From Bacilli bacterium (GTDB lineage Bacteria; Bacillota_I; Bacilli_A; RF39; UBA660): a stretch of 64,000 bases of DNA. Of the stretch, positions 25,769 through 61,645 are shown piece by piece. The position numbers and the translations under genes are program-made. The stretch lies in NCBI GenBank assembly GCA_016295795.1, contig JAEDKN010000003.1, positions 1,680 to 65,679 on the forward strand, read 5' to 3'. Each line of letters begins with the position of its first letter. Position 1 is the first letter of the stretch. The notes beneath the pieces were generated by a model that saw only the letters and a list, made by a program, of their open reading frames with translations, was not told the origin of the DNA and did not search any database.

Positions 25769-25784
25769 GTTGGGAGGAATGAAT

Positions 25785-26015: not shown

Positions 26016-26136
26016 TTTGCCTATTGCATGAGATGAGAGGCAAAATGATTTTGAAATTTTAATATTTTGTGCTATGGTGGAGTTGTCAAAAGATTGGCTA
26101 ACAAAACTTTAAGCAGAAAATCAAGGAGGATGAAAT

Positions 26137-27270: not shown

Positions 27271-27388
27271 TATGAATTACCACGAAAAACAACATTAAAA
27301 AAATACCATTTTTTTAACAAATTTTCCGTTTTGTCATCTAAAATGGTATCTAAAATTTTAAGAAATCGCTAAAAACCCCGTAAATACA

Positions 27389-27422
27389 ACAAAAATGCCG
27401 GCACAGGGCCGGCTTCAGGGGG
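27389..27422. repeat. Left copy of an imperfect direct repeat (candidate att / terminator-like module)
   Basis: ACAAAAATG + GCCGGC-acagg-GCCGGC hairpin + (C)TTCAGGGGG (the hairpin's last C is the first base of CTTCAGGGGG). The same flanks with a different GC hairpin recur at 37730-37764. Confidence 0.5.
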
Positions 27423-27480
27423 CGCTTTTAAAATCATACTTCTGCCTTTCTCTGATTGGTAAAACATGGTTCTACAATTC

Positions 27481-27552
27481 CCCTCAGTTCCCTGAATTTT
27501 CCCTCGTTTTCCCTCATTTTCCCTATTTTAGTGGTTGAGTGGGTGGTTGAAA
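27481..27552 (+). promoter_or_regulatory. Module A: degenerate copy of the ICE promoter/operator module upstream of the xis pseudogene
   Basis: Four TTCCCT boxes, CCCTATTTTAGTGG (27521-27534), GGGTGGTTGAAA (-35-like TTGAAA at 27547-27552). No convincing -10 at 16-17 nt. Confidence 0.4.
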
Positions 27553-27616
27553 TGAAAAATTGTTACCTAAACCTAGATTTTGGTTACCTAAATTTTATAG
27601 AAAGGAGAAAAACAAA

Positions 27617-27837
27617 ATGAAAGAAATAATAACTTATGAAGAATTAAGAAAGATAACTTCTCAAGCTTGGTTATCAGTAAATGATATAATGAAAATCACT
27701 TCAACAAGTAAACGTGCAGCATATAAAATTAAAAACTCTATTAAAGAAGATTTACTAAAAAAGGTTATTACATACCTAATGCACTATTACCTACAAGAGA
27801 AGTATTAGAATATTTAAAAATTAAAGACTCAAAATAA
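27617..27837 (+). pseudogene. Frameshifted homolog of the ICE xis-like gene
   Basis: From the ATG at 27617 (SD AAAGGAG): MKEIITYEELRKITSQAWLSVNDIMKITSTSKRAAYKIKNSIKEDLLKK parallels 25785..26015. After the A6 run (~27759-27764) homology continues in another frame (GYYIPNALLPTREVLEYLKIKDSK vs GFKLPLGLLPMIEVVKYLRID). Confidence 0.6.
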
Positions 27838-27853
27838 ATTGAATCTTTCTTAT

Positions 27854-29731
27854 TTAATTATTAATTCTTTTTAGATAATCTTGCATTCCTTTATCTACAC
27901 AGTAAACATAACAACCTTTCATACCTCTAGTCATTAATGTTCTATAGGTATTTTTTATTATGTTATCAGCAATTTTATTAGCTACTTCTTCGCCTTGTTC
28001 ATTAGCAATCTTCTTAATACCATTTAATGACGTATCTGTTTTAGCACGCTTAGTATAATCTGTTACTATATGACCATCTTCATATCTTAAATCATCACCA
28101 ATTATAACACCAACATAATCAAATTCTAATCCTTGACATGTATGAATGCAACCAACTTCATTAACTGATTCAGCATCAATTGCCCATGTAGTTGAATTTC
28201 CTAAATTCCAACTCATTCCAAAATTAAACTCAGGTATTTCTATATCATGAATTTCAGTATTATTTTTACCTTCACTAATCCAGTTCCAACAATAACCTGC
28301 TACTATTCTTGATTTATTATTTTCTTTGTTTTTTTCTTCAATTAATCTTCGAACTTCATTAGGATCATCTAATACTCTAAAGTCATAATCAAATCCATCT
28401 ATATCAAAATTAGCAGTATCTTTAATATCTAATACTCTATCTAACCATGCAATATACCCATCTGATCCATTACATCTAAATTGACTATCTAAATCAAATG
28501 TATAAATACCTGCTCCTGCTTCATTAGCAAACTTTTTAATTAAATCTTCACTACCAATATCTTTTAAAGTAACTTTTTGATTTTCATCTATAAAGAATAC
28601 AGAAAACTTAGCAGCATTTATAATTTCTTTAATTTGATTTTCACCTTTATTTTGAAACATACCAGATTTAGCATTTAATCTATGAGCTTCATCAACAACT
28701 AAACAATCTAGTTTATTTCTTTCTTCATCTATAAAACTTCCTGAACCTTGGAATAAGTGATTAATATATGTTTGAGTAAAATCTCCTCTTAATTTAGAAG
28801 AATATACACTTCTAGGTGCTGCATTTTTAGTAACATAAAAACAAGTCATATTTCTATTATTTAATTCAACTAATAAATTAACTGCAAGTACTGATTTTCC
28901 TGTACCAGGTCCACCTCTTACTATCATTACATTTTTTTCATTTCTAGATACTGTATCAATAGCATTTCTTAAAGCATATTCATAGACAATTTTTTGATTA
29001 TCAATCATATAGAATTCTCTATTACCTTTTAACATATTTCTTAAAGAATCTTGCAACATTTTAGATGGTCTAATTCTTCCATGATCTATCTCATATAGGA
29101 TATTACCATCATCACCAGTTTCAATATATTTTTTAATAAAATTTCTTAAATTAACAACATCATTATGTCCAAATAATGGCGCTTTATCAGTATATTCTTT
29201 ATATGTATTACTTTTTAATGTATCATCTTCTTCAAAATAATAATTATGAAGATATGCACATGGCACGACATTGATATCTTTTAATTGTACAGCTTCATTA
29301 TAATCTTTAATTAAATTAGCATAAGTCATAGCTTGATATGAAGGATGATTAACATCTCTCATTCCACCACCAGTATAAGTATTTACCTTATAAATACCAT
29401 CCATTTCTCCTACTTCAGTAGCTTTATCCCATTGTTTTAATTCTATTATAACAACATTTGATTTATCTTTATTGTAACCAGACATCATAAAATCGATTCT
29501 ACAACCAGTTGGAGGTATATTATATTCAATAGCTATACCAGTATTATTAGGTATTTCAGAATCACTTAAAACACCTCTCATATATTGCATAGAATTTTTC
29601 CACGAATTAAACTCTGGTACACTAGGTCTTTTCTTTACTACTTCAATATATTTATTTCTTATTTTATCAGCAATTATTCCTAAATCTACATCATCAATAA
29701 ATCCTGATTTAATTCCTTCATATACTAACAT
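27854..29731 (-). CDS. PD-(D/E)xK-like nuclease domain + DUF2075 P-loop ATPase/helicase-like protein
   Basis: N-terminal CRIDFMMSG...VVIIELKQW (D...ExK). GGPGTGKS Walker A, VVDEAHRL Walker B. C-terminal GVIIGDDL...YRTLMTRGMKGCYVY typical of DUF2075. Start at the ATG at 29731 (SD GAGGAG). Confidence 0.75.
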   Translation of the reverse strand: MLVYEGIKSGFIDDVDLGIIADKIRNKYIEVVKKRPSVPEFNSWKNSMQYMRGVLSDSEIPNNTGIAIEYNIPPTGCRIDFMMSGYNKDKSNVVIIELKQWDKATEVGEMDGIYKVNTYTGGGMRDVNHPSYQAMTYANLIKDYNEAVQLKDINVVPCAYLHNYYFEEDDTLKSNTYKEYTDKAPLFGHNDVVNLRNFIKKYIETGDDGNILYEIDHGRIRPSKMLQDSLRNMLKGNREFYMIDNQKIVYEYALRNAIDTVSRNEKNVMIVRGGPGTGKSVLAVNLLVELNNRNMTCFYVTKNAAPRSVYSSKLRGDFTQTYINHLFQGSGSFIDEERNKLDCLVVDEAHRLNAKSGMFQNKGENQIKEIINAAKFSVFFIDENQKVTLKDIGSEDLIKKFANEAGAGIYTFDLDSQFRCNGSDGYIAWLDRVLDIKDTANFDIDGFDYDFRVLDDPNEVRRLIEEKNKENNKSRIVAGYCWNWISEGKNNTEIHDIEIPEFNFGMSWNLGNSTTWAIDAESVNEVGCIHTCQGLEFDYVGVIIGDDLRYEDGHIVTDYTKRAKTDTSLNGIKKIANEQGEEVANKIADNIIKNTYRTLMTRGMKGCYVYCVDKGMQDYLKRINN

Positions 29732-29735
29732 AAAT

Positions 29736-30335
29736 TTACTCCTCACTTAAATACAAATTAGCTTGATATTGCATAGCATATATAACATTTATTATTATTT
29801 CTAAAAAATTAATAATTTGCTTAGCATCAGTTTCATTAAAAATAACTATTTCATGTGTTGCCTCATTACCTTTGTTTCTAATTATATCAACCCAACTTTT
29901 ACAATTTTTAGGAATATAATTATTTTTATCTAAAAAATCTACATATTCAATAAACTTTTTACCTTCTTCCGCTCCACAATCCACTGCAATATGCATCAAT
30001 AATTTACGAGCAGATAAAACACATGACGAAAATGCTGAAGCTTTATAGCAATTTCTAACTTCATCATATAAATGAAAAGTCTTTTCATCAGGAAATATCT
30101 TTTCAGAAAAACTTTTTCCATATTTATACATTGGAACTTGATTGTTCCAATCGATATAAGTTGGATAGTTACAATTATGGCATATATAAATATATCCTCG
30201 TTTATTTGGTTTACCAGAACTACTCCAATCTGTTAAGTAGTAACCTACATTAGAACTTATTTTTTCGCCGCAATATCCACATATAAAACTTTTACTGTCT
30301 AACTCAGAAGTATTTTTCCAATAAATTCCATTCAT
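29736..30335 (-). CDS. Zn-ribbon + DUF4145 domain protein
   Basis: CGYCGEK...CHNCNYP (CxxC...CxxC). C-terminal SARKLLMHIA...WVDIIRNKGNEATHE matches the DUF4145 R..GN...H signature. Start at the ATG at 30335 (SD AGGTGA). Confidence 0.65.
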   Translation of the reverse strand: MNGIYWKNTSELDSKSFICGYCGEKISSNVGYYLTDWSSSGKPNKRGYIYICHNCNYPTYIDWNNQVPMYKYGKSFSEKIFPDEKTFHLYDEVRNCYKASAFSSCVLSARKLLMHIAVDCGAEEGKKFIEYVDFLDKNNYIPKNCKSWVDIIRNKGNEATHEIVIFNETDAKQIINFLEIIINVIYAMQYQANLYLSEE

Positions 30336-30344
30336 ATATATCAC

Positions 30345-30659
30345 CTACAATTTATTATATTTTGTGCTATTACCTTTCGCTTTTTCTATTTCATATTTTT
30401 TAGCATTCTTTTTATATTTATCTAAAACTATTTGTTCTAAATCAACATCAAGTTTTTCAGCTAACATAATACAATAAGCTTGAACATCTGCTAATTCTTC
30501 AACTAATTCTTGTTTATCAAATTCATTATTCCATTGAAAACATTCTAATAATTCTCCTGCTTCAATAGAAATAGATTTAGCAAGATTTTCTGGAGTATGA
30601 AATTGACTCCAATCTCTTTCTTTATTAAATTCATCTATTACTCTTTTTGCTTCATTCAT
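30345..30659 (-). CDS. MazG-like nucleoside-triphosphate pyrophosphohydrolase (small all-alpha dCTPase/YpjD type)
   Basis: 104 aa. RDWSQFHTPENLAKSISIEAGELLECFQW and EELADVQAYCIMLA (EExxE/D metal-binding pairs). Confidence 0.8.
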   Translation of the reverse strand: MNEAKRVIDEFNKERDWSQFHTPENLAKSISIEAGELLECFQWNNEFDKQELVEELADVQAYCIMLAEKLDVDLEQIVLDKYKKNAKKYEIEKAKGNSTKYNKL

Positions 30660-30686
30660 AAGTAACACCTCTATATATATTTTAAC

Positions 30687-30710
30687 ATAAAAAAGCTAAT
30701 TTCTTAGCTT
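30687..30710 (-). terminator. Weak hairpin + U-tract overlapping the NUDIX stop (possible partial terminator)
   Basis: Minus strand AAGCTAA-gaaa-TTAGCTT followed by TTTTAT. Followed by TGtTAAAAT (rc 30679-30687), an extended -10-like sequence. Confidence 0.35.
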
Positions 30711-31090
30711 TCATTAGTAATTTTTTCTACAAAATATATATCTGCAGGAGCAAATTCATAATTTTCAAATTCTTCTTTTGTAATCCATGCAATTTGTTCA
30801 TGTTCTAAGACATCATAAGATTCTCCTATCATAGAACATTTAAGAACAATTAAATTTATTGTTTTATCTGGATATTCATATATTTTTTTATCAAAATATC
30901 CATCACAAATAATATTCATATTTAGTTCTTCTTTTATTTCTCTCACAATAGCATCTTCTTTACTTTCATTTTTTTCTATTTTACCTCCAGGAAATTCCCA
31001 TAAACCTCCTTGAGATTTTTTTAGACTTCTTTGTGCAATTAATATTTTCCCTTCTTTATTTGTTATTATTGCTGCTACTACATCTATCAT
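30704..31090 (-). CDS. NUDIX hydrolase (MutT/NudG-like (d)NTP pyrophosphohydrolase)
   Basis: NUDIX box GGKIEKNESKEDAIVREIKEELN. ATG overlaps the helicase stop (TAATG). Confidence 0.85.
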   Translation of the reverse strand: MIDVVAAIITNKEGKILIAQRSLKKSQGGLWEFPGGKIEKNESKEDAIVREIKEELNMNIICDGYFDKKIYEYPDKTINLIVLKCSMIGESYDVLEHEQIAWITKEEFENYEFAPADIYFVEKITNES

Positions 31091-33840
31091 TAATCTTTCA
31101 CCTTTTCTGGTATTTCAAAATCTAAATGATATTCTTCTGGTACTTCATTATCCAAAATAATATCAAATAATAAAGTTTGATGCTTAACTCCATTTTCTTC
31201 AGTAAATGAACTTCTTTCATTAGTAAATGTTCCTAATCCAAAATAAGTATAAGGAAGTGTTACTGAATCTTCACTTTCCATTTTTCTAATAAATAAGTGA
31301 ACTTTTTTTGAATTTCTTAAATGTTCTTTTTCACTTTCAGATATATTAGCTATACTTTCCCATTGGAATGTAGAATCATTTATAAATTTATCTTTATAAT
31401 TTAATTTACCTTCTTGATCTTTTTTTATTCCTGCAAATATATATGCTATATCATCTTTATAATAAGTACCTTTTTGAAGAATACCATTTTTTAACATAAT
31501 TCGAGATGCTTGTTCCTTATAATAGTTTCTATATAATTTAAACAAACCTTCATATTCTCCAAATTCTCTATTATATCTTGTTATACCATAATTTAATACA
31601 TCTTCTAAATATCTAATAAATTCTTTATTAGATTTATTAAAATACCATTCTCCATTTTCATTAACGATATTTAAAGACACTAAATTATCATATGCGTTTT
31701 TCAATGTTAAGTTAGTAATATGACTATTGATACCTTCTAATCTTTTTAAATCTATTTTATCTTCTTTTAACATTTGATTAATAATTAAATACTCATCTAA
31801 TCTGGCAATTGGTAATAAATCTTCTATTTTATTAATAATATCTATTTCTATGTCATTAAACATAGGAATGTTTTCTTCTCCTATTTTCAATAAAAAATTG
31901 TAATAAGATTTATTCTTAGAATTATTTAGTGATGATTTTATTATTCTTATTAAATCAGGTGCAACATCTGAATTTAAGAAATCCATATGTGTTGGATATG
32001 TTCCGCTATTTATATAAGATTTAAAATTTTGATAATCTTTTTCTAAAAAAACTTTAGAATTAAAATTAGTCTTATCTATATAATTCAATATTTCTTCTTT
32101 TGATAATTCATCAATATCAATAACAACATTAGGTATATCTAATGATTTAAAATCACTTCTAATCATTTGTTTTAAATATGCTTTTTCCATATAAGTTGTT
32201 TTTCCTAATGTTCCTAATGCTAATGCAATTTGAACTGCTCTATCATAATTATTTCCGATAAAATCTAATACAGTAACATATTCTTTACCTGGATATTTTC
32301 TTAAACCTCTACCTAATTGTTGAATAAATATTGTTTGAGATTCAGTTGGTCTTAAGAATAAAACCATATTAACTTGTGGTATATCAACACCTTCATTAAG
32401 AATATCTACAGTACAAATAATTTCTAACGGATTATTATCATCTTGTAAATCTCTAAATGCTTTCATTCTTATTCCAGTATCATTAATTCCTGTTAATGAT
32501 ATTGTTTGATATCCTTCTTCAAATAGTTCTTCAGCCATTAATTTAGAACTTTGAATATTGGTACAAAACGCTATACATTTTAATTTTTCATTTGGTTTTC
32601 TATGTTTTTCAATTTGTTCTTTAATAAATTCAATATTCTCTTGATTTGCTATTTGATTAGCAATTACCATTTTATCCTTTGAATTATAATCAACTAGTTG
32701 ATCTCTTATTCCATAATAATGAAATGGAACAACTAAATCATTGCTAATAGCATCTCTTAATCTTAATTCAAACGGAACATTTTGATCAAATAATCCAAAT
32801 ATATCTTGATTATCCATTCTCTCAGGAGTAGCTGTTAATCCTAACATAAATTCAGGTTTAAAGAATTCAAATATCTTCTTACCTGTATTTGCAACTATAT
32901 GATGTACTTCATCATATATAATATAGTCAAATTCTTCAGGACTAAATTCTTCAATATGTTTAGCTAACATTGTATTAGTTGCAAAAACAAAATCAGCATC
33001 CAAACTTTTTTCATTTCCAGTAAAGAATCCATAAGTTCTCTCAGCACCAAATACTGTTATAAATGAATCTCTAGCATCTTTCAAAATTGTTTCTCTATGA
33101 ACAATATATAGTAATCTTTTAGCACCAAAATTTCTTACATCAAAAGCTGCTAGATATGTTTTTCCGGAACCAGTAGCACTTATAATAAGCGATCTTTTAA
33201 TTCCCATATTTCTATATCTTCTTAATTCCCTTAAAGCTTTTCTTTGCATAGAATTTGGATTAATTGTTGTATCAGATATATTTATATAATCCATATCCCA
33301 TCTTTCAATAGCGTAATCCAATTGTAATTTATATTTTTCAATAAGACTATTTTCTAAAGGTAAAGTTTCTTTCCATAAATAAACAAAATCTTCCATAGCT
33401 TGATTATATGATTCCATTTTTTCTTTTGAATAAAGTGATACATTCCACTCTACATTTTTTAATAAAGCAAATCTTGTTATATTTGTCGAACCTACAATAA
33501 ATTCATAAGAATCCTCATATTCAAACAAATAACCTTTCGAATGAAATCCATTATCTCCAAAACATTCATAATCTAAATGACATTCAAAATGAGGATATTT
33601 ACTTTGTAAATTCATAAAGTATTCCAAAGAAGCAATATCTGTAAAATTTTGATATGTAGAAGTAATTAATTTTCCCTTCACTCCTCTTTCTAAAGCTTCT
33701 TCTAATTCCCTTTCAAATAGAATTAATCCTGCTTTTTTTATAAAACTAACAGAAAAAGAAAATGAATCACATTTTTTTAAACTATCAATTATTTTGTTCA
33801 AAAACATTTGGTCTTTATTTGTTAAAAATAAATCTTTCAT
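31090..33840 (-). CDS. PLD(HKD)-family nuclease domain + SF2 helicase + DUF3427-type C-terminal domain
   Basis: HSKGYLF...IVGSTNIT (HxK...GSxN). SATGSGKT Walker A, YDEVHH (DExH), helicase C motifs (QQLGRGLR). ~300-aa C-terminal region as in DUF3427 proteins. Confidence 0.8.
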   Translation of the reverse strand: MKDLFLTNKDQMFLNKIIDSLKKCDSFSFSVSFIKKAGLILFERELEEALERGVKGKLITSTYQNFTDIASLEYFMNLQSKYPHFECHLDYECFGDNGFHSKGYLFEYEDSYEFIVGSTNITRFALLKNVEWNVSLYSKEKMESYNQAMEDFVYLWKETLPLENSLIEKYKLQLDYAIERWDMDYINISDTTINPNSMQRKALRELRRYRNMGIKRSLIISATGSGKTYLAAFDVRNFGAKRLLYIVHRETILKDARDSFITVFGAERTYGFFTGNEKSLDADFVFATNTMLAKHIEEFSPEEFDYIIYDEVHHIVANTGKKIFEFFKPEFMLGLTATPERMDNQDIFGLFDQNVPFELRLRDAISNDLVVPFHYYGIRDQLVDYNSKDKMVIANQIANQENIEFIKEQIEKHRKPNEKLKCIAFCTNIQSSKLMAEELFEEGYQTISLTGINDTGIRMKAFRDLQDDNNPLEIICTVDILNEGVDIPQVNMVLFLRPTESQTIFIQQLGRGLRKYPGKEYVTVLDFIGNNYDRAVQIALALGTLGKTTYMEKAYLKQMIRSDFKSLDIPNVVIDIDELSKEEILNYIDKTNFNSKVFLEKDYQNFKSYINSGTYPTHMDFLNSDVAPDLIRIIKSSLNNSKNKSYYNFLLKIGEENIPMFNDIEIDIINKIEDLLPIARLDEYLIINQMLKEDKIDLKRLEGINSHITNLTLKNAYDNLVSLNIVNENGEWYFNKSNKEFIRYLEDVLNYGITRYNREFGEYEGLFKLYRNYYKEQASRIMLKNGILQKGTYYKDDIAYIFAGIKKDQEGKLNYKDKFINDSTFQWESIANISESEKEHLRNSKKVHLFIRKMESEDSVTLPYTYFGLGTFTNERSSFTEENGVKHQTLLFDIILDNEVPEEYHLDFEIPEKVKD

Positions 33841-34008
33841 ATAATCATCTCACTCAATTAAATTATACCAGAATGTATACTTTTAAACTAGATCTCTAAG
33901 GAATTTTTAATATTTAATTTTAACCTATCTAATGAAAAGAAAAAGAATTATTGATTATAGTTATATATATTGTAAAAAAGAATCTAAAAACAAAGATGCC
34001 TTATTCCG

Positions 34009-35418
34009 TTAAAGACCTAGAGCATCTATTTTTCGTTTACTTGCACTTTCTTTTTTTCTACCATCCACTTCAATTAATTCAATTTTAGTGTTCTTATATT
34101 TTTGCATAGCATTTTTAAAATTAGTTACTCTTTGATCGTGGTCACCTAAATCTATAAATAAATATATTCCTTTTTCTATTTCTTCTTGAGCCATATATAC
34201 TGGAATTTGCACCTCATAACAATGTGATAATTGATTATTAGAAGATTTTTTTATTTCAACTATAGTTTTATTTTTATAGCCAGAGCTAATTTTAAAATCT
34301 ACAGGACCGCTACCATTATTATTTTCTCTACTAATATCTATATCATTTGCTTTACAATATGAATCTGCTATTCCAAAAAAAAGATTTTGACTATGCGATT
34401 CACTTAATACTAAACCATTATCATCATATAATGATTTCCATAGCCCCTTTTCCTCAATTAAATATTTAAATTGATTACAAATTTTTTTAGTCAATTCATA
34501 AACATCTATATTTTTATCGATATTTAAAGGATTTTCTCTTACATAATCTTTAGATATATAATACCATTTTATTTCACCATTTTTATCTACCGAAAAATCA
34601 TATGATTCAATTTCATCTTCTCTATATTTTTCCAGAAAAGATTCAAAAAATTTTTCGTTACCCATAAACAATCTTTTAAATTCCTTCTTTGTATATTTTT
34701 TTCTTTTATTAGATGTGTTTAAATAACTAGAAAACTCTCTTCTTATTTTTTCATTAAAAGAAGAAACATAATCAATATCACTAAAATCTTCAGCAATTGG
34801 TAAATCTAGCAATAATTCTCTATCTATTACAAGTATTGGCTGATTATTATACTCATTTTTTGGTAGTTTATACACTTTATCTTTATATTTATAATCTTCT
34901 TTTTTTACTTCAAAATTAGAAAAAATATATTCTGAATACAGATAGATATTTTCCTTAATACTATTTAATATAATATCGCTTATCCTGTCACTTCCTATGC
35001 CTTTTTCAAATACACACATCACTTCAAAAATTTCCGGAAAATCTTTTTCTATATCTACAAATTCTTTTACAACTAGAATAATTTTTTCTGCTATTTCTTC
35101 CGATATACCTGAGCCTCTATCACTTTTCCTAGCATAACCTAATGATAAACCTTTTTCTTCTTTAGAAACTAATCTTTTAACCGCTTCATTCCAGTATCTA
35201 TCATTTTTGCTTTTCGAAGTTTTTAATAGTCTTAAAATTATACTAAACTGTTCCAAAATATTGTCATAACATCTCTTAAAATACTCATTTGTTGTCCTTT
35301 TTAATAACATAGGTGAAACAAATAATTTTGAATTTATATCCAAGAAGCTATCAAACGCACCTAATCCATCATATTTTTTCTTATCTATTTCTAAATAATC
35401 TGTAATAGTTATAGCCAT
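34009..35418 (-). CDS. Hypothetical protein with a C-terminal PD-(D/E)xK nuclease-like motif
   Basis: SESHSQNLF...GPVDFKIS...TIVEIKKS (E...D...ExK spacing). ~340-aa N-terminal region with no motif recognised. Start trimmed to the ATG at 35418 (the track extension runs through the upstream terminator). Confidence 0.55.
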   Translation of the reverse strand: MAITITDYLEIDKKKYDGLGAFDSFLDINSKLFVSPMLLKRTTNEYFKRCYDNILEQFSIILRLLKTSKSKNDRYWNEAVKRLVSKEEKGLSLGYARKSDRGSGISEEIAEKIILVVKEFVDIEKDFPEIFEVMCVFEKGIGSDRISDIILNSIKENIYLYSEYIFSNFEVKKEDYKYKDKVYKLPKNEYNNQPILVIDRELLLDLPIAEDFSDIDYVSSFNEKIRREFSSYLNTSNKRKKYTKKEFKRLFMGNEKFFESFLEKYREDEIESYDFSVDKNGEIKWYYISKDYVRENPLNIDKNIDVYELTKKICNQFKYLIEEKGLWKSLYDDNGLVLSESHSQNLFFGIADSYCKANDIDISRENNNGSGPVDFKISSGYKNKTIVEIKKSSNNQLSHCYEVQIPVYMAQEEIEKGIYLFIDLGDHDQRVTNFKNAMQKYKNTKIELIEVDGRKKESASKRKIDALGL

Positions 35419-35440
35419 ATTTACACACCCTTTCCTACTA

Positions 35441-35483
35441 AAAAACACCAATACAACACTTGTTAATCAAGTTTGTACTGGTG
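35441..35483 (-). terminator. Intrinsic terminator after the ATPase-RloB operon
   Basis: Minus strand CACCAGTACAAACTTG-attaa-CAAGTGTTGTATTGGTG followed by TTTTT. Confidence 0.6.
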
Positions 35484-35518
35484 CCTTATTACTTCTTAAC
35501 TTATTTAGAGAATTATCA

Positions 35519-36130
35519 TTAATTATTTAGATTATTAAATTCATCAATTGCATCTAATATTTTATATATACTAGTATGTGGATTTGAACTTAATAAAACT
35601 TCTTTATTCTTAATAATTTGTTGTTCAAAAGACTGGGCAGTACTCCTTGCATTATCTGTTGAATCTTTAATTATTTTATACATATCCATACTTTCTGTAT
35701 ATGTACCATTTAAATTTTGTAATTCCCTTTTTACATCTTTACTTGTTTGAAACTTTAATTTATTGTTTCGATAATGCATTACATACCATATTTCAAAAGT
35801 TGGAGCTGATGTAACTATTTCTATATTATTTTCAATGCATTCTTGTTCTATTTCTTTTATTTCACTTATTCGTCTTTCATCTAAATCTGTATCTAGTACT
35901 AAGAAAATTCTACAATTATCTTCTGAAGCAATATCTTCATTACGAATATATTTTAGTAAATCTTCTAACATTCCTTTAGGATCAGTACTATTTCCTGTAG
36001 AGAACTGAATTCTTAAATTTCTATTAGAATGATTTCTAAAATAATAATATTCTGAAGATTTTTTACCACCCTCTGAACAAATAACAATTAAGGGCTTTTT
36101 CTTGCTTTGTCTTAATTGTCTTCTAGCCAT
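35519..36130 (-). CDS. RloB-like (TOPRIM-related) protein
   Basis: PLIVICSEGGKKSSEYYYF resembles the RloB N-terminal EG..TE..YF motif. Overlaps the ATPase gene end by 19 nt. Confidence 0.6.
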   Translation of the reverse strand: MARRQLRQSKKKPLIVICSEGGKKSSEYYYFRNHSNRNLRIQFSTGNSTDPKGMLEDLLKYIRNEDIASEDNCRIFLVLDTDLDERRISEIKEIEQECIENNIEIVTSAPTFEIWYVMHYRNNKLKFQTSKDVKRELQNLNGTYTESMDMYKIIKDSTDNARSTAQSFEQQIIKNKEVLLSSNPHTSIYKILDAIDEFNNLNN

Positions 36131-37380
36131 AAATCAATATCTCTTATAAATGGAATTGCTCCGTATCTGCCATTTATATAACCTTTTTGTATATTTTCAT
36201 CTTTTCTAACTGAGAACGAATCAAGTGGATATAAATCTGATGCAGCTGTTTTTGAATCTTTTTCTGTAAACCATATTTGATCCCTTCTAAACAACTCTAA
36301 GCTTAATAAATTTATAGCATGAGTAGTAAATATTAACTGACTATTAGATTTATTAATTTTTTTATTATTAAACATTTTAATTATATATTCTACTATAGCA
36401 GGATGCAAACTTTTTTCTAATTCATCTATTACTATAACTTTATTATTCTCAAACGCATACTTTAAGAATGGAGCTAGAAAGAACAAAATTCGAGTTCCTT
36501 CTGATTCTGATTCAAGTCCCATGCCTATATTAAATGTATTATTATTTTCATCAACAACTTCATGTATTAATTCAATTTTTACATTAGATACCATAGGTGT
36601 TCCTACTGTTTTAGCTGCAGGTGGAATAAACATGTTAACCATATTAGTATCCATTTCTTTTTCCTCATAACTAACATTCAAATCTTTAATAAAGATATCA
36701 AATTCTTTCAACATATTTAATGTAAATGTTTTAAGTTCACCATTATTACTATAATCAATTAAAACTTCTTTTGAAATACTATCAAACGAATTATATGTAT
36801 CAATGTAATTTACAAACCATAAATAAGCATCTTTTGTTTTTTCATAATTCCAATTTGTAGCAGTTGCTAAAAACAATTTGTTTTCAGTATTTTTAGATTC
36901 AATAGATTTTAGTTTAGATTCTTCTGTTTTTGGAAAAGTATATTCATTTGTATTTGTTCTTGTGAATATATTAGTAGGTTTTTGAGTATAGTAAGCATCT
37001 AATGATTCTGTATAAACTTTAGTAGCATCAGCACTAAATGCATATTTATACCTAATATTATTAGATATAAAATCGAATTCGAACTCACTAGGACTACCCA
37101 TAGTAAACGCATCGAACATAAACGAATTAATTATCGGCAATCTCATTCCTACAGTATTATTGTTAGAATTTCTAACAAATAAAATTGCAAATGTAAAAGC
37201 TTTTATTAAATTAGATTTACCTGAAGCATTTGCTCCATATATAGCAGCAGTTTTAAGTAAATCAACATTGTTAGTAGATATTATATTATCTAAATTTTCA
37301 TCACCATTACCTTTTTCCATAGATAATGTTACTTTATTTTTAAAAGATAAAAAGTTCTTAACACTAAATTCTATAAGCAT
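36112..37380 (-). CDS. AAA/ABC-type ATPase (AAA_15/AAA_21-like), partner of the RloB-like protein
   Basis: MLIEFSVKNFLSFK..., Walker A GANASGKSNL, Walker B VIVIDELEKSLHP, FTTHAINLL. Start at the ATG at 37380 (SD AGGAGGAG). Confidence 0.8.
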   Translation of the reverse strand: MLIEFSVKNFLSFKNKVTLSMEKGNGDENLDNIISTNNVDLLKTAAIYGANASGKSNLIKAFTFAILFVRNSNNNTVGMRLPIINSFMFDAFTMGSPSEFEFDFISNNIRYKYAFSADATKVYTESLDAYYTQKPTNIFTRTNTNEYTFPKTEESKLKSIESKNTENKLFLATATNWNYEKTKDAYLWFVNYIDTYNSFDSISKEVLIDYSNNGELKTFTLNMLKEFDIFIKDLNVSYEEKEMDTNMVNMFIPPAAKTVGTPMVSNVKIELIHEVVDENNNTFNIGMGLESESEGTRILFFLAPFLKYAFENNKVIVIDELEKSLHPAIVEYIIKMFNNKKINKSNSQLIFTTHAINLLSLELFRRDQIWFTEKDSKTAASDLYPLDSFSVRKDENIQKGYINGRYGAIPFIRDIDLWLEDN

Positions 37381-47352: not shown

Positions 47353-47940
47353 TTATTTTATATAAAATATAGATACTACTTTTGAAAATTGATACAAAAT
47401 AACATTGCTTTTATTTATTGCAAAACTTTTTCCAAATGCTTTACCACCTATAGTTAAAGCTGCAACAAATCCAGTAATTAATAATGTTATTAGAAGTAAA
47501 TTAATCGACAATTTACTAGCTAACGCTAAAGAAATAGAAGATGATAAAGCACCACTTATAATACCACAAATATCACCTATTACATCATTACAAAAACTAG
47601 AAAGCTTTTCAGCATTTTTTATAAACCTAACGGCAAGTGTTGCTCCTTTAACTCTTTTAGATGCCATTGAATTAAAAGTATTTATATCCGCTACAGTAAC
47701 ACTTATTCCTATCATGTCAAATAAAACACCAATCACTATTACTAAAAGCAAAAGAATTATACTTAATACAATGCCAACGTTCGAAATAGCTACTTCTGAT
47801 AGAAAAGAAAAACAAATAGATATCAGAAAAGCACTAAGAGTAATCGTGAAGATCCATCTAAAGTCTATTAGTTTTTTATTAACAACTTTTTTCTTATTAA
47901 CCTTTTTTGAATATTTTTCTTTATATTTTTTATTTTCCAT
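47353..47940 (-). CDS. Four-TM membrane protein with a Lys-rich N-terminus; OapA-like by position (OLE-associated protein)
   Basis: Start at the ATG at 47940 (SD GAGGG). MENKKYKEKYSKKVNKKKVVNKK then four hydrophobic helices with conserved-looking Asp (LFDMIG, CNDVIGDICG). Immediately 3' of the large structured RNA. Confidence 0.5.
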   Translation of the reverse strand: MENKKYKEKYSKKVNKKKVVNKKLIDFRWIFTITLSAFLISICFSFLSEVAISNVGIVLSIILLLLVIVIGVLFDMIGISVTVADINTFNSMASKRVKGATLAVRFIKNAEKLSSFCNDVIGDICGIISGALSSSISLALASKLSINLLLITLLITGFVAALTIGGKAFGKSFAINKSNVILYQFSKVVSIFYIK

Positions 47941-47954
47941 AATAACCCTCAAAT

Positions 47955-48535
47955 ATAAATGAAATGGCAACTAACATGATAAACTCTGTACCTTAGGTCA
48001 AGTTGGATTTCCCTTATTCTTACTTACCGTTACCAGTAAAGCAGTTCCCTTTTAAAAGAATAAATAGTAAGTCACCTTATCTATGACTTGATTGCCACTT
48101 AGTGCACACTGCAATCCCATGTTAGTCTACATTCTAGAGGTTTTCCCCAACAATACCCCCTATTACTAGTACTTTTTTGCAATAATAGTTTCAAGTAGCG
48201 ATACTAAAATAATGGTGTACGCCATATTTTAGCTGTCTCTATTCCCTATTACCACTCAAGTCAAGCTACTCTATCCGTAGCTTTCACTACATGATAGGTT
48301 TAATCCTAAGTCGTAAGAAGTATCAAAAGACCCTCCCACAAGCGTAGGTCTCTACGAACAAATGGGTCGGTTGCCGTATGCCGTTACGATCGCCCATAGG
48401 TTCTTCAAATCCAGCACCCACCCCATGTTGGGCACACAAAGCAAGCACCAGACGCTTCACAGATATGCTCTTTAACGATATTTTACCCTCGTCTTCGTAA
48501 TAATGTATTGACTAGAATAATGCGCCATTTCAATC
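47955..48535 (-). ncRNA. Large (~580 nt) GC-enriched structured RNA, candidate OLE (ornate large extremophilic) RNA
   Basis: No ORF in a 720-bp gap. Visibly higher G+C than the flanks. Extended -10 TGaTATAAT (rc 48539-48547) after the upstream gene terminator. 8-bp closing helix GAAAUGGC (rc 48524-48531) / GCCAUUUC (rc 47961-47968). Internal hairpins, e.g. GUAGU-GAAA-GCUAC and AGACC...GGUCU. Runs directly into the 4-TM gene. Confidence 0.55.
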
Positions 48536-48556
48536 AAGATTATATCATAAATAATT

Positions 48557-48581
48557 AAAAAAGAAAAGGAGTAACCTTTTC
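48557..48581 (-). terminator. Intrinsic terminator of the Ig-repeat surface protein gene
   Basis: Minus strand GAAAAGG-ttact-CCTTTTC followed by TTTTTT. Confidence 0.55.
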
Positions 48582-48693
48582 TTATAAATGACAATTCAAA
48601 TTCAAAACCAAATTGAGATTTAGAATATACCTGACGATTTAGTAATCACAGAATTTTATTAAAAGGCACATATTTCTTCTCACTTTAAATATT

Positions 48694-51195
48694 CTACCAT
48701 CCAGAAAATATCCATTCAAGTGCCTTCCTTGCAGCTTCTTTATCATTATTACTATAATTTGTTGCCATCACAGTAAATGATGGACTAACATTACCAGCTT
48801 TGTCATAACATCGCTTAGTATATAATACTATTTTATCTGCGTTCATATTGGCTTTTCTCTCACCAAACCATTTAATTGAATTATAGTCACCTTTTCTTAC
48901 TATTTTCATATTTTCATCTGGAACCCACGAGAATCCATTATAGTCCCCATATGGCGAACCACCTGAATAAGGTTTCCAAACGATTTCACAGTAATTTATT
49001 CCGGAACCATTATTATTATCTTTTGTATTTATTCCCAAGTTAAGATTTTCGCCTGGATATACACTAACAAGGCAATAAACATGTTTTGAATTTGTTAAAT
49101 AACTAAGCCCAACACTATCTTCAAAATTGCCACCTTCAAAGTTACATCCGCTTCCCGATTTATCAATCTTATACATTTTATTGCTATCAATATATGGTGT
49201 ATAAGGCGCCGTTTTATCTATCTTTATATATTTTTTTTCTTTTGTCTCATTTCCCGCTTTATCAGTAACTGTCACAGTAAAAGTATATGACCCGTCACTA
49301 TCGTAATGCGTTCTTGCAGTAGCAGTCTGTCCATTTATATTTTTTTCTAAACTCTTTTCGGAAGTTATACTTGCTATTCCGGATTCATCATAAGCACTTA
49401 CTTTAATATATACAGACTTATTGGTCCAAGAATTACCAGTATATGAGCTTCCATCATAACCCCCAAGAGTAGCTAATATTGTAACATTTGGAGTAACAGT
49501 ATCTATATTTACCTTATATGAACTTGATGTTATTTCGCCAGAAGAAGTTGTAGCTACAACCTTATATGTACCTGATACACTTGCGGAATAAGTATTAGAT
49601 GTCCCAGACGAAATCTGAGAAGTACCACGATACCATACATATTTAGTTGCCGTTCCATTATTAACTTTAGCAGTTAATGTCACTGATTTATTAGTCCAAG
49701 TACCACTTCCAACACTTCCGGTTAAAGTAATAGTTGGTTTTACTGCAGGTACAATACTAACCGTCTTAGAAACAACCGTATTTCCAGCACCAGTTGTAAC
49801 TTTTACTTTATAAGTTCCTGTAGAAGTAGGAGTATATGTATTCTTAGTAGCTCCACTTATTGCAGTATCTGATTTATACCATTGATATTTATATCCACTT
49901 GCTGTAGTTGATGGAGTTACAACTACTTTCAGCGTACTACCTAATGTAGTATTACCTTCAATTGATGCTTTTGGAACAGTTTTGTCAATTTTAAAAATAT
50001 TAAAACTATAGGCTGTTTTGTTCCCTTTTTTATCCCTTACAATTATTGTTCCTTTTTGATTAGAAGAAAATTCTTTACTATTAGATTTCTGATAAGTTTT
50101 TCCTCCATCAAATGAATATGCAGTATCATGCAATCCATTAACCGCTGTTGCGTTTACTTTCAAAGTCACGTTTTTATTTGTCCAAGAAGTTGGATTACCT
50201 GTAACACTTTTTATTACTGGTGCTACTTTGCTATTATTTGTACTACTTCCACTACTAGACTTCTTAATATTTACTTTATAAACCCCAGAAGTAACACTAT
50301 TTCCACTACCTGTTGTAACAACGACCTTATAGTCTCCAGTAGTTGTTGCTGAATACGTACTCTTAGTAGCCCCATTTATTTTTGTACTTCCACGATACCA
50401 TTGATACTTATATCCACTAACAGTAGTATCAGGAGTAACAATAGCAGTTAAAGTTACATTTGAGGTTGTAGAAACTCCACTTTCTACACTTCCCTCAATT
50501 ATAACTGCTGGTTTCGTTGAATCTATATTAGTTATTTCCTTAGTAAAGATTGCACTTTCATTATTTTTTTCATCTCTTACCCTTATTTGAAGAGTTGTAT
50601 TATCTGTAACAATATAAGTGTTTGATTCTTGATAGTTTTCTCCACCATCAAACGAATATGCTGTTTGATTTAATGGATTAACACTTTCAACAACCACTTC
50701 TACTTTAACTTGTGAATTTGTATATCCTGTAGGAGTCACCTTGACATCTTTTATTACAGGTGCATCTTTGGATTGTTTACATATATTTAATGTATATTTT
50801 CTTACATCTTTACTCTGTGCAGTAACGGTTATAACATGTTCAACACATTCATCTTGTAAATAAATTCTCTTATCACACCCATTAGTTGTAGCTTTAGAGC
50901 TTTCACTACTACACTTTATAGTAACAATGTCTTCACTAGCAGATACTGTATAATTTAAAACTTCTTTGTTATATTCTGGCTCTAATTCTCCATTAGTTAC
51001 CGAAATACTGGTAAGATAATTGTTAGTACTTTTCTTATTTAATTTAGAAAAAGCAAAAACGCAAAGTAATATTATAAGTAACACCGCAACAATCGATATT
51101 ATTATTATTACCATTTTGGGTTTTTTATCTTCACCATCAGTATATAGACTATTGTCTATTGTTTTTTCTTCTTCTTTTTCATTATAATTATCCAT
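48694..51195 (-). CDS. Membrane-anchored surface protein with a cadherin-like beta-sandwich domain and repeated Ig-like domains
   Basis: N-terminal TM anchor. LTSISVTNGELEPEYNKEVLNYTV... (cadherin-like). Three repeats of SGYKYQWY(R/K)...ATK.TY...G.YKV.VTT. Repeated IDKT.P linkers. Confidence 0.6.
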   Translation of the reverse strand: MDNYNEKEEEKTIDNSLYTDGEDKKPKMVIIIISIVAVLLIILLCVFAFSKLNKKSTNNYLTSISVTNGELEPEYNKEVLNYTVSASEDIVTIKCSSESSKATTNGCDKRIYLQDECVEHVITVTAQSKDVRKYTLNICKQSKDAPVIKDVKVTPTGYTNSQVKVEVVVESVNPLNQTAYSFDGGENYQESNTYIVTDNTTLQIRVRDEKNNESAIFTKEITNIDSTKPAVIIEGSVESGVSTTSNVTLTAIVTPDTTVSGYKYQWYRGSTKINGATKSTYSATTTGDYKVVVTTGSGNSVTSGVYKVNIKKSSSGSSTNNSKVAPVIKSVTGNPTSWTNKNVTLKVNATAVNGLHDTAYSFDGGKTYQKSNSKEFSSNQKGTIIVRDKKGNKTAYSFNIFKIDKTVPKASIEGNTTLGSTLKVVVTPSTTASGYKYQWYKSDTAISGATKNTYTPTSTGTYKVKVTTGAGNTVVSKTVSIVPAVKPTITLTGSVGSGTWTNKSVTLTAKVNNGTATKYVWYRGTSQISSGTSNTYSASVSGTYKVVATTSSGEITSSSYKVNIDTVTPNVTILATLGGYDGSSYTGNSWTNKSVYIKVSAYDESGIASITSEKSLEKNINGQTATARTHYDSDGSYTFTVTVTDKAGNETKEKKYIKIDKTAPYTPYIDSNKMYKIDKSGSGCNFEGGNFEDSVGLSYLTNSKHVYCLVSVYPGENLNLGINTKDNNNGSGINYCEIVWKPYSGGSPYGDYNGFSWVPDENMKIVRKGDYNSIKWFGERKANMNADKIVLYTKRCYDKAGNVSPSFTVMATNYSNNDKEAARKALEWIFSGW

Positions 51196-51280: not shown

Positions 51281-51625
51281 TTATCTAAACTGACAACAAG
51301 AACCACATTGAACATTTGATACTGTATCTTGACTGCAACAACTATAACTTGGACGATAAGTATGACGATAAACATGGTTATTAATTACTCTGGTTCTGAT
51401 TGGACATACATGTGGAACTTCGTGCATAATAGTTCTTTGTACCACTCTTTCTTGAACTGGTTCAATAATTGGACATGATACACTTCCAGGCATTTGCATT
51501 CCACTTCCCTGTGCTGCCATAGGCATATTTTCTACATTGATATCAACATCCATGTTTACATCATTATACCCAGCGAAATTAGCATTAAATTCATTTTGTC
51601 TATCACAACATTGTTCTCTAAACAT
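51281..51625 (-). CDS. CotD-like Cys-rich spore coat protein candidate
   Basis: 114 aa. HEVPHVCPIRTRVINNHVYRHTYRP resembles the CotD H.V.P...H.VNHH.Y.H repeat. Cys-rich ends. Confidence 0.45.
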   Translation of the reverse strand: MFREQCCDRQNEFNANFAGYNDVNMDVDINVENMPMAAQGSGMQMPGSVSCPIIEPVQERVVQRTIMHEVPHVCPIRTRVINNHVYRHTYRPSYSCCSQDTVSNVQCGSCCQFR

Positions 51626-60161: not shown

Positions 60162-61388
60162 TTATTTTAAATTTATTAAATAGTATTTCTTTTTTCCTCT
60201 TCTAATAATTACATACTTATCTTCAATGGAAATTTCTTTACATATAATATAATTTTCATCTTTTATTACATCTCCATTAACCAAAATAGCACCATTATTA
60301 ATAAATTCTCTAGCTTCTCTTTTGCTAGAAGCAATATTTTTATCAACTAGGAGATCTAATAAATTCATACTTTCTTCTATCTGATAAGAAGGAACTCCCT
60401 TAAAGACTTGCTCTATATCAGTTGCAGTAAGTGTTTTTACATTTCCATTAAACAAAACTTCACTAAGTCTTACTGCTTTTTCATACTCTTCTTTGCCATG
60501 AATATCAGTAATAACCTCGCGAGCTAAAGCTTTATGCGCTTCTCTCAAATGCGGATTTTCATTATGACTCTTTTCAATTTCTTCTATTTCTTCTTTTGAT
60601 AAAAAAGTTAGTTTCTTTAAATATTCAATAATCATAGAATCTTCAAGATTTACTAAGTATTGATATAGTTCATAACTTGATGTTTTGTTTTTATCTAGCC
60701 ATAATGCATTACCTTCTGTTTTGCCAAATTTAACCCCATTAGAATCAGTTATTAGTGGCATTACCATTCCATATACTTCTTTATCAAGTTTTTTTCTTAC
60801 AAGCTCTATTCCTGAAGTTATATTTCCCCATTGATCTGAACCAGCTACTTGCAAAATACATCCTCTTGTTTCGTATAAATGCATAAAGTCAAGTGCCTGT
60901 AATATCATATATGAAAATTCAGCATAAGTAATTCCGCTTTCTAATCTTGATTTTACTTTATCCTTAGCAAGCATATAATTAACATTAAAATATTTTCCAT
61001 AATCTCTTAGGAAGTCTATAACATTTATATCTTTTGTCCAATCGTAGTTGTTCACAACCTCAAACCCAAAAATTTCTTCAGCCTGACGTTTTAATCCTTT
61101 GAAATTTTTTTCCACTTCTTCCTTTGAAATCATTGGCCGTTCCGCAGTCGGCTTAGGATCTCCAATAAGCCCTGTAGCTCCACCTACTAAAAGTATTGGA
61201 TGATGCCCAGCTTTAGCCAATCTTTTAGAAATTAGAAATGATGAATAGTGTCCAATATGCATAGAATCTGCAGTTGGATCTGTTCCAATATAAAAAGTAA
61301 TAGAATCATTATTTAGCTTATCAATAAGATCTGGGCTACTTATATCTTGTATTAACCCTCTCCATTTCAATTCTTCATATAAATTCAT
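60162..61388 (-). CDS. tyrS: Tyrosine--tRNA ligase
   Basis: DSMHIGHY (HIGH), KFGKT (KMSKS), C-terminal S4 domain. Start at the ATG at 61388 (SD GAAGGAGGA). Confidence 0.92.
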   Translation of the reverse strand: MNLYEELKWRGLIQDISSPDLIDKLNNDSITFYIGTDPTADSMHIGHYSSFLISKRLAKAGHHPILLVGGATGLIGDPKPTAERPMISKEEVEKNFKGLKRQAEEIFGFEVVNNYDWTKDINVIDFLRDYGKYFNVNYMLAKDKVKSRLESGITYAEFSYMILQALDFMHLYETRGCILQVAGSDQWGNITSGIELVRKKLDKEVYGMVMPLITDSNGVKFGKTEGNALWLDKNKTSSYELYQYLVNLEDSMIIEYLKKLTFLSKEEIEEIEKSHNENPHLREAHKALAREVITDIHGKEEYEKAVRLSEVLFNGNVKTLTATDIEQVFKGVPSYQIEESMNLLDLLVDKNIASSKREAREFINNGAILVNGDVIKDENYIICKEISIEDKYVIIRRGKKKYYLINLK

Positions 61389-61406
61389 ATTTATTTCCTC
61401 CTTCAA

Positions 61407-61645
61407 TTTCTTATTCCTTGAACGCGCAATTCTTTTTAAAACAAAAAGATAGTATATACTAAGGACGAGTCATACCCGTGGTACCACCTTAATTCATAGC
61501 TATACTATCTCATTACTATATGGCGTAACCCAATAAGCTCCAAATTCGTAATTCACATAAATCTAAAGATTAGTTTTCACCACCACTAATTCTCTTTTTT
61601 CTTTATAAATATGTTACTATAATTTTTCATCGCTTAAATATTTAT
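61407..61645 (-). promoter_or_regulatory. T-box riboswitch leader of tyrS
   Basis: Minus strand AAGGTGGTACCACGGG (rc 61475-61490) matches the T-box core GGTGGTACCRCG. Stem-I-like AGAGA...AGTGGTGGTGAAA upstream. Candidate Tyr specifier TAC at rc 61548-61550. Confidence 0.8.

What the first reader, a model, noticed from the sequence alone, without database searches (positions are those of the whole stretch)
47353..48547. ~580-nt GC-enriched structured RNA with its own extended -10 promoter, running into a 4-TM basic membrane protein gene: OLE RNA/OapA-like locus
Seen: a 720-bp ORF-free gap that is clearly richer in G+C than the surrounding AT-rich DNA. The upstream gene's terminator (48557-48581) is followed by TGaTATAAT. 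An 8-bp helix (GAAAUGGC/GCCAUUUC) closes ~570 nt, and there are several internal hairpins including a GAAA tetraloop. The 3' strand of the closing helix ends about 20 nt before the SD of a 195-aa protein with a Lys-rich N-terminus and four TM helices. Established: OLE RNAs (~600 nt, anaerobic or extremophilic Firmicutes) are almost always followed by oapA, which encodes a small 4-TM protein that tethers the RNA to the membrane. Inference: this is an OLE-class ribonucleoprotein locus, or another large ornate RNA, in a different gene neighbourhood (a surface-protein gene upstream rather than the isoprenoid/recN-type operon reported for OLE).
Basis: partly seen in the sequence, partly recalled or inferred. 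Interest (0 to 1): 0.65.

Follow-up and report, generated by a model that had tools for sequence, protein, structure and literature searches.

The report
OLE RNA with its oapA partner gene
This stretch encodes an ordinary, full-length copy of the already described OLE RNA (a ~600-nt bacterial non-coding RNA whose biochemical job is still unknown), followed by oapA, the gene for the membrane protein that anchors it; the host is an uncultured AT-rich gut bacterium.

Summary
Window 47948-48544 (- strand) matches Rfam OLE (RF01071) over the whole model at 379 bits (cut-off 50; E 6e-108). ROOL, GOLLD and raiA do not match. The 8-bp closing helix, the upstream terminator, the TGaTATAAT promoter and the G+C enrichment (39% against 27%) are all present.

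In 44 related loci the Rfam structure plus the closing helix is 87% base-paired, against about 41% in register-shifted controls, and 113 of 159 pairs show changes on both sides.

The 195-aa downstream protein meets every published OapA criterion I could test:
- four hydrophobic helices and a Lys-rich N-terminus;
- an invariant DxxxD motif and no proline;
- a sub-threshold CNNM Pfam match;
- a confident AlphaFold model whose only convincing PDB matches are the archaeal CNNM protein CorB;
- homologues that sit directly downstream of an OLE RNA in 78 of 80 genomes.

The gene neighbourhood (ffh, cotD-like, surface protein, ole, oapA, NAGPA, PFOR) differs from the H. halodurans operon but is shared by a subclade of gut Bacilli MAGs. 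OLE neighbourhoods are known to vary, and OLE has already been catalogued in about 2,800 genomes, gut MAG lineages included. Verdict: a real feature of an already known kind, and of low novelty.

The parts
48561..48583 (-). Intrinsic-terminator-like hairpin of the upstream 833-aa surface-protein gene (AAGAAAAGG-TTACT-CCTTTTCTT, then a T run)
   Evidence: sequence
48539..48567 (-). Predicted ole promoter: weak -35 (TTTTCT, 48567-48562), TG extension (48547-48546), -10 TATAAT (48544-48539). The predicted start is about 7 nt downstream, at the foot of the closing helix.
   Evidence: Sequence. 36 of 45 related loci have TGnTATAAT ending 9-20 nt (mostly 11-15) upstream of the invariant UGG, many with TTGACA. 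Transcription itself was not shown.
47948..48544 (-). OLE RNA gene (extent of the Rfam RF01071 match, model positions 1-616 of 616)
   Evidence: 379.4 bits, E 6.3e-108. 140 of 153 model pairs are canonical in this sequence. Covariation. Only 1 variable site in 597 nt among six strains.
48524..48531 (-). 5' strand of the closing helix (GAAAUGGC)
   Evidence: helix 1: 5 of 8 pairs change on both sides, 81% of cells paired
47961..47968 (-). 3' strand of the closing helix (GCCAUUUC); it ends 10 nt before the oapA SD
48409..48454 (-). Long conserved hairpin with a GCCCA loop (Rfam model 93-139). Its flanks (48454-48464 and 48400-48409) carry the UC-NNN-GAAG and GAAGA elements that correspond to the published OapC k-turn region.
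   Evidence: alignment; helix 3 (91% paired, 9 of 20 pairs with double changes). The k-turn assignment is my inference from PMC9723947 and was not tested.
48064..48084 (-). Hairpin equivalent to P13: GUGA (GNRA) tetraloop with a bulge or internal loop in the stem. This is the published primary OapB site.
   Evidence: alignment (model about 480-500); helix 17 (96% paired, 8 of 8 pairs covary); site definition from PMC7936274
48022..48042 (-). Hairpin equivalent to P14.1 with a GUAA tetraloop (the published weak second OapB site)
   Evidence: alignment; helix 19; PMC7936274
47946..47950 (-). Shine-Dalgarno sequence GAGGG of oapA, 5 nt before the ATG
   Evidence: sequence
47353..47940 (-). oapA: 195-aa (about 21 kDa) four-helix membrane protein with a Lys-rich N-terminus; DxxxD (D119-D123) is encoded at 47572-47586
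47295..47323 (-). Strong promoter-like site (TTGAAA, 17 nt, TG-TATAAT; 11 of 12 matches) for the next gene, just after a T9 run that follows oapA. It suggests that ole-oapA is a self-contained two-gene unit.
   Evidence: inference only

Best explanation
The locus encodes a typical OLE ribonucleoprotein module. A sigma-70-type extended -10 promoter probably drives one transcript that carries the ~570-nt OLE RNA, bounded by an 8-bp closing helix, and the oapA mRNA directly behind it.

By analogy with H. halodurans, the stable OLE RNA would be bound by dimers of the CNNM-like four-helix membrane protein OapA and held at the cell membrane. There the RNP helps the cell cope with stresses: Mg2+ excess, cold, short-chain alcohols and poor carbon sources. 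The leading hypothesis in the literature is that the RNA supplies to OapA, a putative divalent-cation transporter, the regulatory functions that the CBS and CorC domains supply in the all-protein relative MpfA.

Shown here: the identity of the RNA, its fold, the identity and fold of the protein, and the conserved promoter motif. Inferred from the literature and not tested here: transcription, processing, membrane localisation and physiological role.
For: RNA:
- Full-length Rfam OLE match at 379 bits; no other large-RNA family matches.
- 140 of 153 model pairs are canonical in this sequence.
- With 44 relatives, 87.1% of cells are paired against 39-45% in slid controls, 113 of 159 pairs change on both sides, and 0 of 500 shuffles reach the observed values.
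- Among six strains OLE has 1 variable site in 597 nt (0.17%), against 0.51% in oapA and 2.85% in the next gene.

Protein:
- CNNM PF01595 match of 17.9 bits, below the cut-off, which is how OapA is described in PMC11332333.
- D119-x-x-G-D123 is invariant in 47 diverse homologues.
- No proline, four hydrophobic helices, 11 Lys/Arg in the first 25 residues.
- AlphaFold model with pLDDT 89.8. Its top four PDB matches are MtCorB 7M1T and 7M1U at probability 1.00 (TM 0.42-0.53; E 0.005-0.11, none below 0.001), and the next match has probability 0.04. 7M1U is the structure published as the top match for H. halodurans OapA.

Linkage and expression signals:
- Homologues lie downstream of an OLE sequence on the same strand in 78 of 80 genomes. 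Of 13 of these loci scanned with Rfam, 12 have OLE, including cultured Clostridium oceanicum, Alkaliphilus transvaalensis and Acetobacterium paludosum.
- The promoter motif is conserved in 36 of 45 loci.
- No terminator-like site lies between OLE and oapA; only 10 nt separate the closing helix from the SD.
Against: - There are no expression data for this organism.
- The biochemical function of OLE is unknown in any species, so the mechanism is borrowed from H. halodurans.
- OapB and OapC could not be looked for outside the 64-kb window. No KOW or L7Ae protein appeared among the window ORFs I scanned, but not every ORF was scanned. The literature says reduced gut lineages often lack these proteins.
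- The Rfam score of 379 bits is lower than for cultured Clostridia (471-540 bits).
- The small hairpin at model positions 424-435 is missing.
Confidence: 0.95

Rival explanations
1. The structured region is mainly a long cis-acting leader, like a riboswitch or attenuator, that controls translation or transcription of the downstream membrane-protein gene. On this reading it is not a stable trans-acting RNP component.
For: The RNA and the gene are almost certainly co-transcribed: only 10 nt lie between the closing helix and the SD, and no terminator-like site lies between them.
Against: The sequence is a full-length member of the OLE family. In H. halodurans that RNA accumulates as a discrete, abundant ~630-nt species and binds OapA, OapB and OapC (PMC9723947). 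No expression platform, such as an alternative terminator or an SD-sequestering helix, is evident. The structure is conserved over about 570 nt.
Confidence: 0.03
2. The locus is a decaying relic of OLE in a reduced gut genome and no longer functions.
For: The bit score is lower than in cultured Clostridia (379 against 471-540). One small hairpin is lost. Published work describes reduced OLE variants and loss of OapB and OapC in gut MAG clades (PMC11332333).
Against: - 140 of 153 model pairs are intact and compensatory changes are widespread in the clade.
- OLE is the least polymorphic segment of the locus among six strains.
- The oapA reading frame is intact and all family-invariant residues are present.
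- The promoter is conserved.
Confidence: 0.02
3. The RNA belongs to a different large ornate class (ROOL, GOLLD, raiA or a new class) that only resembles OLE superficially.
For: None beyond size and G+C enrichment.
Against: The gathering-threshold scan of the whole window against 4,227 Rfam families returned only OLE and a T-box. The OLE match covers model positions 1-616.
Confidence: 0

Closest known systems
OLE RNA (Rfam RF01071) with OapA, as characterised in Halalkalibacterium (Bacillus) halodurans
   Same: - Length (~570-600 nt), full set of conserved sequence blocks and helices, closing helix, GNRA-capped hairpins of the OapB site and k-turn-region sequences.
- oapA immediately downstream.
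- OapA of about 21 kDa with four TM helices, a DxxxD motif and a CNNM-like fold.
- A dedicated promoter, as also reported for H. halodurans (PMC9723947).
   Different: - The host is an uncultured gut Bacilli lineage with 27% G+C, not an alkaliphile.
- The small hairpin at Rfam positions 424-435 is absent here and throughout the clade.
- Presence of OapB and OapC is unknown.
Reduced OLE 'variant 1' (TANB77) and 'variant 2' (RF39) RNAs of gut MAGs (Fernando & Breaker 2024, PMC11332333)
   Same: A host-associated, uncultured Bacillota host. The bit score falls in the numerical range those authors used for variant 1 (310-390), although their model differs from the Rfam model.
   Different: The window's RNA keeps essentially all Rfam helices and the GUGA tetraloop of the OapB site, which variant 1 often lacks. 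It has none of the large deletions described for variant 2. I could not map the P7-P9 names onto the Rfam model, so the class assignment stays open.
MpfA / CorB (CNNM-family Mg2+ transporters)
   Same: The OapA transmembrane fold matches the CNNM domain of MtCorB, and there is a weak PF01595 sequence match.
   Different: OapA has no CBS or CorC domains, has four rather than three TM helices, carries the DxxxD motif and lacks the conserved CNNM proline. It is paired with an RNA instead.

Membership tests
OLE RNA (RF01071) | Scores above the curated gathering threshold of the family covariance model over its full length | tested here: met
   379.4 bits against 50, E 6.3e-108, model 1-616 of 616, not truncated
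OLE RNA (RF01071) | The conserved secondary structure is formed and is supported by covariation | tested here: met
   140 of 153 pairs canonical.: 87.1% paired against about 41% in slid controls, 113 of 159 pairs with double changes, 0 of 500 shuffles.
OLE RNA (RF01071) | oapA lies immediately downstream on the same strand | tested here: met
   the ATG is 21 nt after the closing helix. The same arrangement holds in most of the 78 related loci with OLE; about 9 have OLE further upstream.
OLE RNA (RF01071) | Host is in Bacillota, typically anaerobic or extremophilic | tested here: met
   Nearest relatives are 'Bacilli bacterium' gut MAGs. The window carries PFOR and EzrA. Exact taxonomy is not resolved.
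OLE RNA (RF01071) | GNRA tetraloop plus stem bulge in P13 (OapB-binding site) | tested here: met
   A GUGA loop at 48069-48078 within the hairpin 48064-48084, with a one-nucleotide asymmetry in the stem; site defined in PMC7936274. Binding was not tested.
OLE RNA (RF01071) | Stable, abundant ~600-nt transcript localised to the membrane | not testable with these tools
   Needs RNA-seq or a Northern blot and cell fractionation
OLE RNP | Partner proteins OapB (KOW, YbzG) and OapC (YbxF, L7Ae-like) are encoded in the genome | not testable with these tools
   Only 64 kb of the genome is available. None was found among the window ORFs scanned; several ORFs in 1-12 kb were not scanned.
OapA | Small (~21 kDa) protein with four transmembrane helices | tested here: met
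   195 aa. Hydrophobic segments at about 27-53, 55-83, 110-144 and 146-176.
OapA | DxxxD motif | tested here: met
   D119-V-I-G-D123; D119, G122 and D123 are invariant in 47 homologues of 33-54% identity
OapA | Distant CNNM relative: a sub-threshold PF01595 match, no conserved CNNM proline, a CorB-like fold | tested here: met
   17.9 bits (cut-off 28.4).: zero prolines.: the top four PDB matches are MtCorB 7M1T and 7M1U, probability 1.00, TM 0.42-0.53, E 0.005-0.11 (none below 0.001).
OapA | Found next to ole genes | tested here: met
   78 of 80 homologue loci have OLE upstream. Rfam confirmed OLE in 12 of 13 loci scanned. The exception is L041, which has no OLE within 5.5 kb.
OapA | Direct sequence comparison with H. 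halodurans OapA | not tested
Homologues next to OLE in cultured Clostridia (L063, L064, L075; 41-43% identity) served as proxies.
ROOL / GOLLD / raiA large RNAs | Match to the respective Rfam models | tested here: not met
   only OLE and a T-box reach threshold in the window

The most novel reading that the evidence does not exclude
In this subclade of gut Bacilli, ole-oapA is a self-contained, separately promoted unit kept between a strain-variable surface protein and envelope genes (NAGPA phosphodiester glycosidase, PGA_cap). That placement could reflect a functional tie between the OLE RNP and the cell envelope. It would fit the recent proposal that OLE domain 2 reaches the outer face of the membrane and the cell wall. 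These small genomes might then be a minimal natural system for dissecting OLE function, possibly one that works without OapB and OapC.
Probability: 0.1. Interest if true: 0.5.

Novelty: already known. Interest (0 to 1): 0.2.

Why it matters
OLE is among the largest and best-conserved bacterial non-coding RNAs whose biochemical function is still unknown, so each correctly annotated locus is useful. This one adds no new kind of element. Its modest value:
- It documents a full-architecture OLE-oapA module in a very AT-rich, uncultured gut Bacilli lineage.
- A canonical TGn-extended -10 promoter, often with TTGACA, abuts the closing helix and is conserved across 36 of 45 related loci.
- The neighbourhood of envelope and surface genes is conserved in a subclade.
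- The RNA is the least polymorphic segment of the locus within the species.

Tried and rejected
- Other large-RNA classes: the Rfam gathering scan of the whole window gave only OLE and a T-box.
- NCBIfam has no model that matches the 195-aa protein.
- A profile of 47 OapA homologues finds no PDB chain by sequence even at E<=1. The CNNM relationship is visible only through the weak Pfam match and the fold comparison.
- The consensus promoter scan did not list the ole promoter because its -35 is weak. The case for the promoter rests on positional conservation of TGnTATAAT in relatives.
- Species identification: the closest GTDB representative (L005, MAG SUG1454) shares only 75% OapA and 87% Ffh identity, so taxonomy stays at 'uncultured gut Bacilli'.
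- Assignment to the published classes (full-length, variant 1, variant 2): those classes were defined by bit scores from a different covariance model, and the figure naming P7-P9 is not available. I left this open.
- The original 2006 OLE paper (PMC1748253) is not held. Operon and promoter statements come from PMC9723947 and PMC12265935.
- I looked for OapB-, OapC- and MpfA-like genes among the window ORFs I scanned and found none. Several ORFs in 1-12 kb were not scanned, and 64 kb says nothing about the rest of the genome.

Full report
**Observation.** On the minus strand, the 833-aa upstream gene stops at 48694 and the next gene starts at 47940. The 753-bp gap holds only three ORFs of 40-45 aa. 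The gap is G+C-rich for this genome: 39% over 47948-48544 and 40% over the helix-bounded core, against 27% for the window. A terminator-like hairpin with a T run lies at 48583-48561. It is followed by TGaTATAAT at 48547-48539. GAAAUGGC (48531-48524) and GCCAUUUC (47968-47961) can pair and enclose 571 nt. Real GNRA loops are GUGA and GUAA, further 3'.

**Identity of the RNA.** I scanned the whole window against all 4,227 Rfam families at gathering thresholds. It gave two hits: OLE (RF01071) at 47948-48544 (-), with 379.4 bits against a cut-off of 50, E 6e-108 and model positions 1-616 of 616; and an unrelated T-box at 61458-61639. ROOL, GOLLD and raiA did not match. Of the 159 model base pairs, 153 have both partners in this sequence and 140 of those are canonical. 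The only element lost is the small hairpin at model positions 424-435.

**Independent support from relatives.**
- I built a profile of the downstream protein and 46 diverse homologues and used it to fetch 80 loci from GTDB species representatives.
- A sequence search with the window's RNA found an OLE-like sequence on the same strand upstream of the protein gene in 78 of them. One exception (L067) is cut by a contig end, and there Rfam still finds the 3' part of OLE. The other (L041) has none within 5.5 kb.
- Rfam confirmed OLE in 12 of 13 loci tested, including the cultured Clostridium oceanicum, Alkaliphilus transvaalensis and Acetobacterium paludosum at 471-540 bits.
- I aligned the window's RNA with the 44 closest relatives and projected the Rfam structure plus the closing helix onto the alignment. 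This gave 87.1% standard pairs, against 39-45% when partners are slid by 1-3 columns. 113 of 159 pairs show changes on both sides, and no shuffle out of 500 reached the observed values.
- Six metagenomic strains carry the identical protein. Among them the RNA has one variable site in 597 nt, against 0.51% for oapA and 2.85% for the next gene.

**Identity of the protein.** The 195-aa product (about 21 kDa) has these features:
- 11 Lys/Arg in its first 25 residues, four hydrophobic helices and no proline.
- A single DxxxD motif (D119-D123). D119, G122 and D123 are invariant across 47 homologues of 33-54% identity.
- A Pfam match to the CNNM transmembrane domain below threshold (17.9 bits).
- A confident AlphaFold model (pLDDT 89.8). 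The only convincing PDB matches are four chains of the archaeal CNNM protein MtCorB (7M1T, 7M1U; probability 1.00, TM 0.42-0.53, E 0.005-0.11, none below 0.001). The next match has probability 0.04.

These are the features published for OapA: four TM helices, a DxxxD motif, no CNNM proline, CNNM as the nearest Pfam family, and 7M1U as the top structural match (PMC11332333). It is a 21-kDa protein whose gene almost always follows ole (PMC9723947). No solved structure matches by sequence alone.

**Expression signals.**
- The -10 box with a TG extension is not an accident of AT-rich DNA. In 36 of 45 aligned loci a TGnTATAAT-like box ends 9-20 nt (mostly 11-15) upstream of the invariant UGG of the closing helix. 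Many loci also have a perfect TTGACA at the right spacing. A start about 7 nt downstream would put the 5' end at the foot of the closing helix.
- No terminator-like site separates the RNA from oapA. A T9 run and a strong new promoter (47323-47295) follow oapA. The simplest reading is a self-contained ole-oapA unit. This is inference, since no transcript data are available.
- H. halodurans ole also has its own promoter although it sits in a large operon (PMC9723947), so this is not a departure from the family.

**Neighbourhood.** Reading along the minus strand, the window carries ezrA, ftsY, ylxM, a 648-aa unknown, ffh, a CotD-like gene, the Ig-like surface protein, ole, oapA, a 466-aa membrane-anchored protein, NAGPA, PGA_cap, PFOR and recG. 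The core order ffh, cotD-like, (variable gene), ole, oapA, (variable gene), NAGPA, PFOR recurs in part in nine related gut Bacilli MAGs. The closest is MAG SUG1454 (L005; OapA 75%, Ffh 87%). This differs from the H. halodurans gene cluster. However, the literature already lists cell-wall and sporulation genes among frequent ole neighbours (PMC12265935).

**Mechanism.**
- What can be said rests on H. halodurans. OLE RNA binds OapA and is thereby localised to the membrane. The RNP, with OapB and OapC, is needed under cold, alcohol, Mg2+ and carbon-source stress (PMC9723947, PMC12265935).
- MpfA, an all-protein CNNM transporter, anticorrelates with OLE and may be its functional replacement (PMC11332333).
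- The window's RNA keeps the GUGA-capped hairpin of the OapB site (defined in PMC7936274). It also keeps sequence elements that line up with the OapC k-turn; that alignment is my inference.
- Whether this organism has OapB, OapC or MpfA cannot be told from 64 kb.

**Verdict.** The feature is real, but it is a standard member of a curated Rfam family already catalogued in about 2,800 genomes, gut MAG lineages included (PMC11332333). Novelty is low, and so is interest, apart from the general importance of OLE.

Noticed in passing
window 61458-61639 (-): A T-box leader (Rfam RF00230, 95.7 bits) lies directly upstream of a tyrosyl-tRNA synthetase gene (60162-61406). This is an ordinary arrangement.
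   Followed up: partly
window ~5700-27300: Probable integrated conjugative element: M23 peptidase (5723-6745), T4SS pilin (12113-12388), two SSB genes, DUF3846, sortase (14966-15589), SpaA/thioester-domain adhesin (15570-18308) and a tyrosine integrase on the opposite strand (26137-27270).
   Followed up: partly
window ~20500-37400: Defence-gene cluster: T5orf172/ResIII protein (20503-23400), Eco57I- and MmeI-type methylase fragments (23379-25572), Schlafen-like helicase (27854-29746), DUF4145, MazG-like, NUDIX, PLD-helicase-DUF3427 protein (31090-33840) and an AAA_21/RloB pair (35519-37422).
   Followed up: partly
window ~48584-49198 (C-terminal part of the 833-aa Ig-like protein and its terminator); L083, L084: In two of six strains with the identical OapA, this segment does not align with the window, and the gene is 806 aa rather than 833 aa in L083 (L084's copy is cut by the contig end). 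ole-oapA next to it is nearly invariant. This looks like a strain-variable surface protein abutting a highly conserved RNA gene.
   Followed up: partly
L041 5510-6070: An OapA homologue (55% identity) has no OLE RNA detectable by nhmmer or Rfam in the 5.5 kb upstream. This is an exception to the ole-oapA tandem rule; ole may lie elsewhere or be lost.
   Followed up: partly
alignment A2 columns 225-270 (e.g. L042, L033, L009, L023): About 25 of 45 gut-Bacilli OLE RNAs carry a conserved apical insert (CCUAUACG ... CUGAYGGAC) in the stem at Rfam positions 198-241. It looks k-turn-like. The window and its nearest relatives lack it.
   Followed up: no
window 51281-51625 (-): A 114-aa Cys/His-rich protein with a weak CotD spore-coat match is conserved (55-86% identity) a few kb upstream of ole in the same subclade. 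Published work reports a correlation between OLE and sporulation genes.
   Followed up: no
window 47405-47962 (+): A 185-aa ORF lies antisense to oapA. It is almost certainly spurious, a mirror of the AT-rich coding strand.
   Followed up: no
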